Source: Promethearchaeota archaeon
GTDB taxonomy: Archaea; Asgardarchaeota; Lokiarchaeia; Sigyniarchaeales; Promethearchaeaceae
DNA: 32,000 nucleotides
Assembly: GCA_016933055.1 (NCBI GenBank)
Contig: JAFGBS010000009.1
Location: 540,001 to 572,000, forward strand
Direction: 5' to 3'
Part shown: positions 9,088 through 12,295 of the stretch, piece after piece
Layout of the letters: every line of letters starts with the position of its first letter
How positions within the stretch are numbered: position 1 is the first letter of the stretch
The notes under the pieces: model-generated
Seen by the model: the letters and a program-made list of their open reading frames with translations, nothing else
What the model was told of the DNA's origin: nothing
Database searches by the model: none
Made by a program: the position numbers and the translations under genes

Positions 9088-9729
9088 TTATGAGATGATT
9101 TGATTTTTCCATAGGATCCACTTCACTAAGGTTATTGTAGTAGAACTTAAATATGAGGTAGTTCCCAGTGAAATCCTTTTTATTTTTGGTGAAAATTGCT
9201 CCAGCTCAAGGTGTGAAAATCCTTTTTGATCTCCTAATATAAAGCACATTTTTTTAGGAACTTTCGGGATACCTAAGTTAAATTCCTTAATCAGTGTACC
9301 TCCCTCAACTAATAGATATGAATCAACATCATTATTAGCCAAAAAAGCAGTGCATTCATAAATATTTAGGTCAACAAGCCTGTCAAACAACGTATTTTTC
9401 TGTGTTGTACTATCAACATTCTTGCAAGATGAGTAAAATGCTTTCAATAAACTATGTTCCGAAGCATTTTTACAGGATATTCTAGTAAAAAAAGGAGAAT
9501 TGGTAGAAATCATAAATCCATTGAAATTAAGTGGGGGATGATTAAGATATCGACTTAATTCTGACAAAAAGGTTGAATTAGGGAATAAGATGAATGCAAT
9601 ATTTGAATTATAGCCGTTTGGATTAAATAAGGCACTTTTCATCACTCTCATAATTACATCCGCTCTTCCGGTTGAGGTAGGAACATTTCTTAGATCATAT
9701 CCTTCAAATCTCACGGTACTTGAGCACAT
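9088..9729 (-). CDS. trmY: SPOUT methyltransferase, tRNA pseudouridine-54 N1-methyltransferase-like
   Basis: N-terminal GRADVIMRVMKSALF resembles TrmY GRxDxxxR; C-terminal knot FILGDQKGF...ISLG..SYLSSTTITLV. The frame stays open upstream to 9786, so the start is uncertain. Confidence 0.72.
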   Translation of the reverse strand: MCSSTVRFEGYDLRNVPTSTGRADVIMRVMKSALFNPNGYNSNIAFILFPNSTFLSELSRYLNHPPLNFNGFMISTNSPFFTRISCKNASEHSLLKAFYSSCKNVDSTTQKNTLFDRLVDLNIYECTAFLANNDVDSYLLVEGGTLIKEFNLGIPKVPKKMCFILGDQKGFSHLELEQFSPKIKRISLGTTSYLSSTTITLVKWILWKNQIIS

Positions 9730-9844
9730 AATAAAAATAATTTCAGGAAATGCATTGATTTGAATAATTATTTCACCGATATCAGATCAAAAAGTAGAAA
9801 TGGTGCGTATGATATTAATTCTATGGGGAATTCGATGAAGAACA

Positions 9845-10125
9845 AGTAGCCTTATTGTATCGAGGACGTGTTAGAGTTCTACAATGACAACACCGAGCAA
9901 AAAATAAGGCGATATTTGGAGAACCTTTTTCACACTTCACCCACTGGGCGAGCTGTATGAGGAATTATCCTATGAATACAGTTCAGCATTTTTGGGTGAT
10001 AAAGAAAATGCCCCATCAGCATAGGGTTCGAAAACACCTTCCATGGAGAACTTCTTAGAGCTATTGGATTTTCCTTGCGATGAAAAAGATGGTTAGTGGG
10101 TAGGTAAAATCGATAACCCTATGCT
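9845..10125 (+). ncRNA. Probable three-hairpin box H/ACA pseudouridylation guide sRNA
   Basis: Three stem-pocket-stem-K-turn hairpins (9849-9914, 9938-10001, 10036-10108), each followed by an ANA box 14-15 nt from the top of the pocket. Pockets are complementary to conserved 23S rRNA sequences recalled from memory. Confidence 0.75.
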
Positions 10126-10184
10126 CCCTCTTTTAGCTCTTTATTCCAATTAATTGGAAGTTCAAACAATCAAGAAAATTACAC

Positions 10185-10631
10185 TTAAAAAATATTCTGT
10201 TCTTTATAGATAATTTTTATTTCTTCGGGAACTGCAGAAAGTGTTTGAAAGCTGAGTTTTATGATTTTCCGTAAAATCGGACTGTACTTGTTCATTAGGC
10301 CTCGGATGATTCCCATATTTACCATTAAATCTGTTGCAACAACTAAATAGGCTGAACCAAGACCTTGAGTGAAAATAAAACCTTGATCATATTCAGTAAT
10401 CTGAGATTTGATTTTCCCATATCCAATAAGGAATCCTTGTTCTTCGATTGTATGGTAAATAGTGCCAGAAATTGCACCAAACCTCTCTAAATTTACATCG
10501 GTTTGAAATTTACTCACATTGGCTAAACTTATCCCTGATCCGTCCATTATCAGTGCGTATCGTATTCCGGGACTGACAGCAAGTATCTTTTTTAATACTT
10601 TCATTATCACTTCCTTATGTTGTTGTTCCAT
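10185..10631 (-). CDS. Roadblock/LC7 (MglB-like) domain protein
   Basis: Typical pattern: ALIMDGSGISLA, FGAISGTI, ITEYDQGFIF, YLVVAT..VNMGII. Confidence 0.85.
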   Translation of the reverse strand: MEQQHKEVIMKVLKKILAVSPGIRYALIMDGSGISLANVSKFQTDVNLERFGAISGTIYHTIEEQGFLIGYGKIKSQITEYDQGFIFTQGLGSAYLVVATDLMVNMGIIRGLMNKYSPILRKIIKLSFQTLSAVPEEIKIIYKEQNIF

Positions 10632-11881: not shown

Positions 11882-12295
11882 TTATTTTTCTTGCCGTGAG
11901 ATGCTTGATTTAGATCTTGGCTTATAAGGCAGTTTCCCAGATTTATTTTTATTACTTTGATGCCGCATATCTCTCATTCTCCAATCCGTAATTTTTCCCT
12001 TTTTCTTTCCCCGAGAATCAGGTAATGTATACAGAGGTTCACCAACACGAGAACTAAAAGAAGAGGATGAAAGATTCGGACGAGAGGATTTTATTTTGAA
12101 ATACGGTTTGTATACTGGACCTATTATATCGGTAATTTTCCCAATACGCATTGCATTCGAATCATAAATTTCTGATCCGATTGCAGGAAGCTTTTTATCA
12201 CGAGACCATGTAGATGGTCTCACGATAATTGCACGTTGGGTGCATCCGAGTATATATCCAAGTCGCAGTGTGTGATCACCTAATGAGAAACTCAT
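11882..12295 (-). CDS. gar1: H/ACA RNP protein Gar1/Naf1 family
   Basis: LPAIGSEIYD..RIGKITDIIGPVYKPY motif; position directly upstream of tfb is a known archaeal arrangement. Confidence 0.85.
   Translation of the reverse strand: MSFSLGDHTLRLGYILGCTQRAIIVRPSTWSRDKKLPAIGSEIYDSNAMRIGKITDIIGPVYKPYFKIKSSRPNLSSSSFSSRVGEPLYTLPDSRGKKKGKITDWRMRDMRHQSNKNKSGKLPYKPRSKSSISRQEK

What the first reader, a model, noticed from the sequence alone, without database searches (positions are those of the whole stretch)
9845..10125. Unannotated three-hairpin box H/ACA guide RNA with predictable 23S rRNA targets
Seen, hairpin 1: P1 GCCUUAUU 9849-9856 / AAUAAGGC 9903-9910; P2 GUGUU/AACAC; K-turn GA 9874-75 plus AAU-GA 9883-87; AUA box 9912-14. 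Hairpin 2: P1 CACCCA 9938-43 / UGGGUG 9993-98; 8-bp P2; textbook K-turn GA 9959-60 plus UAU-GA 9971-75; AUA box 9999-10001. Hairpin 3: P1 10036-44 / 10096-105; K-turn GA 10058-59 plus GAU-GA 10079-83; AAA 10106-08. Using conserved rRNA sequence recalled from memory: pocket 1 (GUAUCGAGG / GCAAA) pairs with UUUGC-U-A-CCUCGAUGU, giving U2496 in E. coli numbering (yeast Psi2865, snR46). Pocket 2 (UGGGCG / CAGC) pairs with the A-loop GCUG-U-U-CGCCCA, giving U2554 (yeast Psi2923, snR10). In both, the box lies exactly 15 nt from the pocket, as the H/ACA rule requires. Pocket 3 (GGAGAAC / GUUA) fits UAGC-U-G-GUUCUCC, giving U807, with weaker support. Inference: an Asgard-type guide RNA for sites that eukaryotes also modify. 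The RNA class is known; I cannot tell whether this instance has been described.
Basis: partly seen in the sequence, partly recalled or inferred. Interest (0 to 1): 0.82.

Follow-up and report, generated by a model that had tools for sequence, protein, structure and literature searches.

The report
Three-hairpin H/ACA guide RNA, Asgard archaea
The gap between two genes encodes a real, uncatalogued small RNA of about 310 bases, conserved across Asgard archaea, that most likely tells the cell's pseudouridine-making enzyme which uridines of the large ribosomal RNA to convert; it is a new example of a well-known kind of RNA.

Summary

A single hairpin of this type is not beyond chance: a strict descriptor gave 18 hits in the genome against 12 in controls. 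Conservation is the real evidence. The whole three-hairpin RNA recurs in 17 aligned genomes of two Lokiarchaeial families and in three further Asgard families. Guide bases are invariant and the stems covary.

Hairpins 1 and 2 obey the archaeal H/ACA geometry exactly: a 10-layer GA stem, with ANA 15 nt from the pocket. Each has one outstanding match in the organism's own 23S rRNA, at E. coli positions 2496 and 2554. These equal yeast Psi2865 (snR46) and Psi2923 (snR10).

Helix 69 (1915-1921) fits the geometry better. This target stays unresolved.

The RNA is larger than proposed, about 9824-10134. It has a closing helix, a basal helix under each hairpin that starts right after the ANA box, and a fourth, box C/D-like K-turn under hairpin 1.

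Cbf5, Nop10, L7Ae and Gar1 are all encoded. There is no Rfam match.

The scan had found other uncatalogued archaeal H/ACA RNAs before, but no look-alike of this one.

The parts
9824..10134 (+). Whole predicted sRNA (about 311 nt): the 5' end is inferred from promoter spacing and helix P0, the 3' end from the U-run after the outer stem
   Evidence: The MFE of this stretch recovers P0, the L-helix, all P1 stems and the outer stem; z = -3.05.
9790..9803 (+). A-rich BRE/TATA-like element (AAAAGUAGAAAUGG) about 30 nt upstream of GGGG. It is conserved in G001; family f3 has AAAA+TTTTATNT at the same distance.
   Evidence: inference from spacing; no TSS data
9824..9828 (+). P0 5' strand, UGGGG. It pairs with CCCCA at 10011-10015 and encloses hairpins 1 and 2.
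   Evidence: GGG/CCC is invariant and the flanks covary (UGGGA/UCCCA against AGGGA/UCCCU).
9831..9842 (+). Kt0 bulged strand (C-box-like): C-stem UUC, bulge GAU, GA, A, NC stem GAA
9849..9914 (+). H/ACA motif 1. P1 is 9849-56 / 9903-10. The 5' guide is 9857-65 (GUAUCGAGG). The GA stem is 9866-75 / 9886-96, with 10 layers and C9894 bulged. The K-loop is 9874-87. The 3' guide is GCAA at 9897-9900. AUA is 9912-14, 15 nt from G9897.
9915..9923 (+). Kt0 non-bulged strand (D-box-like): NC stem UUU, G, GA, C-stem GAA, starting directly after the AUA box of motif 1
9925..9931 (+). L-helix 5' strand, CUUUUUC. It pairs with GAAAAUG at 10004-10010 and forms the basal helix under motif 2.
   Evidence: G001 has CCUAUUUC/GAGAUAGG, G006 has GUAUUUUCU/AGAAAAUAC, f3 has AUAAUCA/UGAUUAU and G162 has GGGUUGA/UCAACCC.
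9938..10001 (+). H/ACA motif 2. P1 is 9938-43 / 9993-98. The 5' guide is UGGGCG at 9945-50. P2 is 9951-58 / 9976-83. The K-turn is G9959.A9975 and A9960.G9974, with C-stem 9961-63 / 9968-70 and bulge UAU 9971-73. The 3' guide is CAGC at 9984-87. AUA is 9999-10001, 15 nt from C9984.
10004..10015 (+). L-helix 3' strand (10004-10010) followed by the P0 3' strand CCCCA (10011-10015)
10018..10031 (+). Outer stem 5' strand (AGCAUAGGGUUCGA). It pairs with 10110-10125 and forms the basal helix under motif 3.
   Evidence: Compensatory changes include G080 GGCGUGCG/CGCACGCU, G006 GCAUGAU/AUCAUGC and G162 CGCGUCA/UGACGCG.
10036..10108 (+). H/ACA motif 3. P1 is 10036-44 / 10096-105 with U10101 bulged. The 5' strand is GGAGAAC at 10045-51. 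The upper stem is 10051-57 / 10084-91. The K-turn has GA 10058-59 and GA 10082-83, with bulge GAU 10079-81. The 3' guide is GUUA at 10092-95. AAA is 10106-08, 14 nt from G10092.
10110..10125 (+). Outer stem 3' strand
10126..10134 (+). CCCUCUUUU tail: probable oligo-U termination signal (inference)

Best explanation
The plus strand of about 9824-10134 encodes one small RNA with three box H/ACA pseudouridylation-guide motifs. Each motif would bind Cbf5-Nop10-Gar1 through its lower stem and ANA box, and L7Ae through its K-turn or K-loop. The two strands of its internal loop pair with 23S rRNA on either side of an unpaired U-N, and the U is isomerised to pseudouridine.

Motif 1 targets the U at E. 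coli position 2496, in the helix 89/90 region of the peptidyl-transferase centre. Motif 2 targets U2554 of the A loop. Motif 3 is a conserved guide whose target is most likely in helix 69, either U1921 in a typical pairing or U1915/1917 in an atypical one, rather than near U807.

The three units sit on a common scaffold: closing helix P0, a box C/D-like K-turn (Kt0) under motif 1, and basal helices under motifs 2 and 3 that begin right after each ANA box.

What is shown: the sequence anatomy, complementarity to the organism's own 23S, conservation and covariation, and the presence of the protein genes. What is inferred: transcription, RNP assembly, pseudouridine formation, and the role of the scaffold.
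For: Anatomy is at the stated coordinates.

Published rules (PMC4652768) say that productive archaeal motifs have a 10-bp GA stem and 14-15 nt from the stem's closing pair to ANA. Motif 2 has 8 bp plus 2 G.A pairs, which makes 10, and a 15-nt distance. Motif 1 has 10 layers and 15 nt. In all 17 aligned genomes the 5' strand between guide and GA is exactly 8 nt, and ANA lies at 14-16 nt.

Against the organism's own 23S, motif 1 pairs 4+9 bp (score 12, next best 7) and motif 2 pairs 4+6 bp (score 10, next best 5). The target sites are conserved in relatives.

E. coli numbering was checked on an E. coli 23S sequence. The yeast equivalents are Psi2865/snR46 and Psi2923/snR10 (PMC8307265).

Covariation: in Kt0 plus the motif 1 GA stem, 202 of 208 cells are canonical, against a mean of 158 and a maximum of 171 in 1000 partner shuffles. 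RNAalifold finds 15 pairs with double changes. The P1 stems of motifs 1 and 2 have many unrelated sequences.

The family is found in two Lokiarchaeial families and in Asgard families f5, f6 and f24.

G.U pairs and the boxes fit the plus strand only.

The protein genes are present: Cbf5 (419.8 bits), Nop10, L7Ae, and Gar1 at window 11882-12295.

A related record is titled Promethearchaeota archaeon.
Against: There is no Rfam hit, including to HgcG RF00064.

The motif 2 match alone is not rare: 28 of 300 shuffled guides score as well.

Outside the window's genus, motif 2 has 16-18 nt to its box and leaves three target bases unpaired.

The guide arms of motif 3 are short (4+4 to 4+6 bp). Its box is lost in G001 (CCG) and degenerate in G006 (UCA).

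The 3' arms of motifs 1 and 2 are only 4 bp.

The RNA was not found with my patterns in most other genera of family f1, including the three single-contig genomes.
Confidence: 0.8

Rival explanations
1. Same RNA, but motif 3 guides pseudouridylation near E. coli U807 (AGC-U-G-GUUCUC).
For: GGAGAAC pairs with GUUCUCU over 7 bp in this organism. In genus g9 (G057) the site reads UAGC-UG-GUUCUC, giving 4+6 bp, the best LSU hit for that guide. GAGAAC is invariant across the phylum and GGUUC is invariant in 23S.
Against: This model uses A50 and C51 as guide bases, which leaves an 8-layer GA stem. Motifs 1 and 2 of the same RNA, and motif 3 itself, always keep 8 nt (10 layers) before the GA. 8- to 9-layer stems were unproductive in P. 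abyssi.

C51 pairs with a G of the 3' strand in every lineage, and the pair becomes U-A in G006.

The organism's own 23S has a U.U mismatch in the 3' arm. In g6 and f5 the site reads GUUCCC, giving only 4 bp.
Confidence: 0.15
2. The RNA, or at least motif 3 and the scaffold, acts mainly as a non-modifying chaperone or assembly factor for rRNA folding. It would bind H/ACA proteins without making pseudouridine, as proposed for parts of yeast snR10 and snR30.
For: Motif 3 has short arms. Its box is degenerate in two f1 genomes. The scaffold (P0, Kt0, basal helices) has no role in the standard guide mechanism. The review PMC7991803 notes processing roles for snR10 and snR30.
Against: Motifs 1 and 2 have full canonical guide geometry and invariant guide bases that match modified sites of other archaea and eukaryotes. 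Archaeal rRNA processing is not known to need H/ACA RNAs.
Confidence: 0.07
3. The hairpins are chance or regulatory structures, such as a UTR, a terminator of the convergent Roadblock gene, or a leader of the trmY-like gene, and not a stable guide RNA.
For: A strict single-hairpin descriptor is only slightly enriched over controls (18 against 12). There is no Rfam hit and no expression data.
Against: The same ordered three-hairpin unit, with its own promoter-like element, recurs in different gene neighbourhoods across five Asgard families. Guide bases are invariant and stems covary. The flanking genes are on the opposite strand.
Confidence: 0.03

Closest known systems
Afu4 / Pf7 / Pab40 / Pho40, the three-motif box H/ACA sRNA of Archaeoglobus and Thermococcales (Rfam HgcG, RF00064; PMC2377435)
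   Same: It has three H/ACA motifs in one RNA.

Motif 1 of Pab40 makes Psi2588 of P. abyssi 23S. This is E. coli 2496 by the 92-nt offset implied by the RluE/B/C statement of that paper, the same site as motif 1 here. Motif 3 targets the helix 69 loop (Psi2016). Afu4 motif 2 was once assigned to the P. abyssi-equivalent 2647, which is E. coli 2555 in the A loop.

The order of targets therefore matches hairpins 1 and 2 here, and hairpin 3 too if the helix 69 reading is right.
   Different: The covariance model detects no similarity. The authors doubted the A-loop assignment for Afu4. To my knowledge those RNAs have not been described with basal helices after the ANA boxes or with a K-turn under motif 1. 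The RNA here is AT-rich and comes from a mesophile.
Haloferax volcanii sR-h45 (two stem-loops; PMC7075261)
   Same: It is a multi-hairpin archaeal guide. Its SL2 pairs next to UAAC of helix 69 and accommodates extra unpaired bases (UNUN), which is a model for the atypical helix 69 reading of hairpin 3. The paper also shows tolerance of box distances up to 17 nt and modification of the 5'-most unpaired U.
   Different: It has two motifs and different targets (E. coli-equivalent 2580-region and 1915/1917). It has no motif for 2496 or 2554.
Yeast snR46, snR10, and snR3 or snR191 (eukaryotic H/ACA snoRNAs)
   Same: The predicted sites coincide with Psi2865 (snR46), Psi2923 (snR10) and, for hairpin 3, Psi2264 (snR3) or Psi2258/2260 (snR191).
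   Different: Eukaryotic snoRNAs have the hairpin-hinge-hairpin-tail form, no K-turns, and Nhp2 in place of L7Ae. No sequence homology was tested or is claimed.
Pab21 (Pf1), an H/ACA sRNA carrying a box C/D motif
   Same: It is an archaeal H/ACA RNA joined to a C/D-type K-turn motif, and two forms of it are seen in vivo. This is a precedent for Kt0.
   Different: The arrangement in Pab21 was not available to me. Here the C-like and D-like boxes bracket hairpin 1, and there is no C'/D' pair or free methylation guide.

Membership tests
Archaeal box H/ACA guide sRNA | Hairpin with lower stem, internal loop (pocket) and upper stem | tested here: met
   true of all three hairpins
Archaeal box H/ACA guide sRNA | K-turn or K-loop (tandem sheared G.A signature) capping the upper stem | tested here: met
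   The GA/GA signature is invariant in 17 genomes. The 3b.3n position is non-canonical (U.U, C.A), as expected. This is a sequence-level test only.
Archaeal box H/ACA guide sRNA | GA stem of about 10 layers between pocket and second G.A (PMC4652768) | tested here: met
   Motifs 1 and 2 have exactly 10 layers in every genome parsed. Motif 3 has 9-10.
Archaeal box H/ACA guide sRNA | ANA box 14-16 nt 3' of the pocket top, next to the lower stem | tested here: met
   In the window the distances are 15, 15 and 14 nt, and the boxes are AUA, AUA and AAA. Relatives have ACA, AUA or AAA. Exceptions are the motif 3 box in G001 and G006, and motif 2 at 16-18 nt outside the genus.
Archaeal box H/ACA guide sRNA | Two-arm complementarity to rRNA around an unpaired U-N | tested here: met
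   Met for motifs 1 and 2 against the organism's own 23S. Inconclusive for motif 3.
Archaeal box H/ACA guide sRNA | Cbf5, Nop10, Gar1 and L7Ae encoded by the organism | tested here: met
Archaeal box H/ACA guide sRNA | Stable transcript, RNP formation, and pseudouridine at the predicted sites | not testable with these tools
No modification data were available.
Rfam HgcG (RF00064) and other catalogued H/ACA families | Score at or above the gathering threshold of the covariance model | tested here: not met
   There was no hit at the gathering threshold. At E<=10 only 4 sub-threshold hits appeared, none to an archaeal H/ACA family and none to RF00064. RF00064 found nothing in the whole genome at E<=10.
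Box C/D sRNA (considered for Kt0) | C box RUGAUGA and D box CUGA forming a K-turn closed by a terminal stem | tested here: inconclusive
   Leader AUGAAGA (f3: AUGAUGG) and linker UGGA (others CUGA, CGGA) form a covarying K-turn with C-stem and NC stem. The boxes are near-consensus only.
Box C/D sRNA (considered for Kt0) | C'/D' boxes and a free 10-12 nt guide upstream of box D | tested here: not met
   The bases upstream of the D-like box are the ANA box and the P1 3' strand of hairpin 1. No C'/D' pair was seen.

The most novel reading that the evidence does not exclude
The conserved scaffold may be functional and new for this RNA class. The scaffold consists of a closing helix, a basal helix that starts immediately after each ANA box, and a box C/D-like K-turn bracketing hairpin 1. 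It would hold three Cbf5 modules and four L7Ae copies in one fixed particle that modifies the peptidyl-transferase centre, the A loop and helix 69 together. This would be an Asgard-wide arrangement that foreshadows eukaryotic multi-hairpin and composite C/D-H/ACA RNAs.
Probability: 0.3. Interest if true: 0.65.

Novelty: new member of a known kind. Interest (0 to 1): 0.5.

Why it matters
Asgard archaea are the closest known relatives of eukaryotes, yet I found no description of their H/ACA guide RNAs in the searchable literature.

This RNA gives a concrete, phylum-wide gene whose predicted sites coincide with pseudouridines that eukaryotes install with snR46, snR10 and snR3/snR191. One of its predicted targets (E. 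coli 2496) is the experimentally assigned site of motif 1 of the euryarchaeal Afu4/Pf7/Pab40 RNA; the other two parallels rest on an assignment those authors doubted and on the unresolved target of hairpin 3. That makes the continuity of rRNA pseudouridylation from archaea to eukaryotes testable in cultured Lokiarchaeia.

A guide for the A-loop uridine (2554) is not among the P. abyssi sites. The basal helices and the extra K-turn are structural features worth testing.

It also supplies a missing annotation, and a seed alignment for a new Rfam family.

Tried and rejected
- Rfam at the gathering threshold and at E<=10, and RF00064 on the whole genome, gave nothing useful.
- Covariance models built from only two sequences (R1 for hairpin 2, R2 for hairpin 1) found nothing outside the genus in 60 relatives. 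Guide-anchored patterns were what found the family.
- A plain DNA search found only the congener G001.
- Synteny through the trmY-like protein was too loose to use directly.
- A relaxed phylum pattern gave many false positives and had to be read by eye.
- The pattern GGGRAAC..., meant to find a covaried hairpin 3 in other f1 genera, gave nothing convincing.
- For hairpin 3, tRNA targets gave no convincing hit.
- A 6+4 match in the 3' end of a relative's 23S (UAACCG-UA-GUUC) depends on bases that differ in f3 and was rejected.
- An automatic duplex-based parser of all helices failed on several genomes, so those helices were read from printed segments.
- MAFFT alignments misplace the P1 strands, so RNAalifold under-reports them.
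- The third covariance model was not built, because the alignment register at P1 was inconsistent.

Full report
**Setting.** The window is contig C17:540001-572000 of a 3.76-Mb archaeal assembly with 35% G+C. The stretch 9730-10184 has no ORF of 40 aa or more. It lies between a weak TrmY-type RNA methyltransferase gene (9088-9729, minus strand) and a Roadblock/LC7 gene (10185-10631, minus strand). TFB and Gar1 genes follow. A near relative's record is titled Promethearchaeota archaeon, that is, Asgard.

**Observation.** Hairpin 2 contains a textbook K-turn: P2 as the non-canonical stem, G9959.A9975 and A9960.G9974, a GGA/UCC canonical stem and a UAU bulge. The thermodynamic fold of the plus strand has z = -3.2 and, for the extended RNA, z = -3.05.

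**Is it more than chance?** Not on motif grounds alone. A strict descriptor was run over the genome: 6-bp P1, 7 of 7 paired GA-stem layers, K-turn or K-loop, and ANA at 14-16 nt. It gives 18 hits against 12 in reversed or complemented controls. Shuffled guides reach the observed rRNA match in 1/300 trials (hairpin 1), 28/300 (hairpin 2) and 60/300 (hairpin 3). The decisive evidence is comparative.

**Relatives.**
- A DNA search found only the congener G001, at 76% identity. It already shows compensatory changes in P1 of hairpin 1, P2 of hairpin 2, and P1 and P2 of hairpin 3.
- Two-sequence covariance models found nothing further.
- Patterns anchored on the guide bases did. UCGAGG...GA...GA...GCAA recovered hairpin 1 in genus g9 and in G006. 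GAGAAC...GA...AUGARAA recovered hairpin 3 in genera g9, g11, g13 and g18, with further matches in g15, g16, g17 and g22 that I read only as matched strings and did not examine in context.
- In every locus inspected all three hairpins are present in the same order.
- A phylum-level scan plus fetched loci showed the same RNA in three other Asgard families: f5 (1.4-Mb genomes), f6 and f24.
- Guide bases are invariant, while the stems carry unrelated sequences. P1 of hairpin 1 reads GCCUUAUU, UGUCAU, CGCAU, GAGCAU, UACAUU, GGCAUU or UGCGU. P1 of hairpin 2 reads CACCCA, UCAGA, UGCAAA, UCCUG, CUGCGA, CCCUG or CUGCUG.

**Geometry.** Toffano-Nioche et al. (PMC4652768) found that productive P. abyssi motifs have a 10-bp GA stem and 14-15 nt between its closing pair and ANA.
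- Hairpin 2 has 8 Watson-Crick pairs plus two G.A pairs, and a 15-nt distance.
- Hairpin 1 has 10 layers and 15 nt. Its closing layer is A.A in the window and U-A in G001, with one bulge.
- In all 17 genomes the 5' strand between guide and GA is exactly 8 nt in hairpins 1, 2 and 3. ANA lies 14 nt (f3), 15 nt (window's genus) or 13/16 nt (G006) from the 3' guide of hairpin 1.

**Targets of hairpins 1 and 2.** The organism's own 23S sits at a contig end (C6:1-2702, minus strand, truncated at model position 2706).
- Pocket 1 pairs GCAA with UUGC and GUAUCGAGG with CCUCGAUGU around an unpaired UU. The score is 12; the next best site scores 7.
- Pocket 2 pairs CAGC with GCUG and UGGGCG with CGCCCA around an unpaired UU. 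The score is 10; the next best scores 5.
- I fetched an E. coli 23S and calibrated it on landmark residues. The targets are positions 2496 and 2554.
- The yeast table in PMC8307265 lists Psi2865 (snR46) and Psi2923 (snR10), with Um2921 equal to E. coli Um2552.
- Majumder et al. (PMC7075261) report that the 5'-most unpaired U is the one modified.
- The 2496 site is identical in all relatives examined. The A loop reads UA instead of UU in most of them.
- Outside the window's genus, hairpin 2 lacks the G opposite C2556 and has 16-18 nt to its box. The extra length falls in one or two A's that would bulge if CAGY-A(A)-CCCA pairs with UGGG-GCUG.

**Hairpin 3.** Its structure is as well conserved as the others. 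P1 shows several double changes. It has an ACA box in f3, f5, f6 and f24, AAA here, and AUA in one g13 genome. G001 has CCG and G006 has UCA at that place.

That gives 7 bp on one arm, but a U.U mismatch on the arm that matters more. The site varies among lineages (GUUCUC, GUUCCC) while GAGAAC does not. It also requires A50 and C51 to act as guide bases, which shortens the GA stem to 8 layers. Yet C51 pairs with a G of the 3' strand everywhere, and the pair changes to U-A in G006.

If hairpin 3 follows the same 8-nt rule as hairpins 1 and 2, its guides are ...GAGA and GUUA. The only LSU site that scores in the window's organism, g6 and g9 alike is helix 69, UAUAAC-U-C-UCUU, which is invariant in these rRNAs. 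That gives two readings:
- a typical 4+4 pairing on E. coli U1921, which equals yeast Psi2264 (snR3);
- an atypical pairing in which GUUA binds the first UAAC and GAGAGA binds UCUCUU, leaving the loop UAUAAC unpaired, as in sR-h45 SL2 for Psi1915/1917.

I rate helix 69 at about 60%, the 807 site at about 15%, and something else at about 25%.

**Extended architecture.**
- The closing helix P0 is UGGGG 9824-28 with CCCCA 10011-15. GGG/CCC is invariant in the 17 aligned genomes, and the flanks covary.
- Kt0 has C-stem UUC/GAA, bulge GAU, G9837.A9920, A9838.G9919, and NC stem GAA/UUU that starts right after the AUA box of hairpin 1. It covaries: AGC/GUU, AAU/AUU and GC/GC for the C-stem; GGA/UCC, GAA/UUC and AGA/UCU for the NC stem.
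- Together with the GA stem of hairpin 1, 202 of 208 cells are canonical, against at most 171 in 1000 partner shuffles. The sequences are related, so this overstates significance.
- The L-helix under hairpin 2 and the outer stem under hairpin 3 also start right after their ANA boxes. They show unrelated yet complementary sequences in different lineages.
- The MFE fold recovers P0, the L-helix and the outer stem unaided.
- A BRE/TATA-like element sits about 30 nt upstream of GGG in all lineages. A U-run follows the outer stem.
- Pab21 of Pyrococcus, an H/ACA RNA seen with and without a C/D motif, is a precedent for Kt0.

**Proteins.** Cbf5 (TIGR00425, 419.8 bits), Nop10, two L7Ae-family genes and Gar1 are encoded.

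**Comparison with known RNAs.** Muller et al. (PMC2377435) describe Afu4/Pf7/Pab40 as three-motif RNAs. Motif 1 makes Psi2588. That is E. coli 2496, given the 92-nt offset implied by their statement that Pab35 covers the RluE, RluB and RluC sites. Motif 3 targets the helix 69 loop. Afu4 motif 2 was once assigned to the equivalent of E. coli 2555. The Asgard RNA therefore looks like the functional counterpart of that RNA, though no covariance-model similarity exists. E. coli-equivalent 2554 is not among the P. abyssi pseudouridines.

**Literature and earlier notes.** Searches for Asgard or Lokiarchaeota together with H/ACA terms returned nothing relevant. The scan's earlier notes list uncatalogued H/ACA RNAs in other archaeal groups, but no look-alike of this sequence.

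**Verdict.** This is a real, conserved, uncatalogued three-motif H/ACA guide RNA. It is a new member of a known kind, with an unusual conserved scaffold. Two targets are well supported and one is unresolved. Expression and modification remain untested.

Noticed in passing
23S of relatives: L035, L036, L037, L089, L155 (A loop); own contig C6: The A-loop base equivalent to E. coli U2555, usually regarded as universally conserved, is A in G009, G010, G011, G057 and G152 (GCUGUACGCCC). It is U in the window's organism.
   Followed up: partly
window 9088-9729 (-) and 11882-12295 (-); relatives G017, G019, G023, G026, G031, G032, G037: A weak TrmY-type (m1-pseudouridine methyltransferase family) gene lies beside the RNA here, and 3-15 kb from it on the same contig in many f3 genomes. 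Gar1 lies 1.7 kb away in the window. This may be general synteny or a loose pseudouridine-related neighbourhood.
   Followed up: partly
G000:C15:162271-162359 (-): Another hairpin passes the strict H/ACA descriptor: long GA stem, AAA box, AT-rich P1. It could be a second guide RNA or noise.
   Followed up: no
G008:C235:5662-5701 and G008:C240:9601-9640 (L095): Two near-identical copies of a K-turn-like hairpin (GAGAAC.GGUUUGA-CCUCAAUUGCAAUUGAG-AAAUGAGAACGG) with no recognisable lower stem or box. Its nature is unknown.
   Followed up: no
G057:C68:17319-21347 (L090): A second LSU rRNA match spans 4029 nt for a 2987-position model, at a much lower score than the first copy. This suggests large insertions or a degraded copy.
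   Followed up: no
L061:1640-1700 (G006): In G006, hairpin 3 carries an extra 7-bp hairpin (UUCAUAU/AUGUGAA) inserted between the outer stem and P1, and its box reads UCA.
   Followed up: partly
G000:C6:1-2702: The genome's only 23S copy is cut by the contig end at about model position 2706 of 2987, so targets in the last 280 nt could not be checked in this organism.
   Followed up: yes
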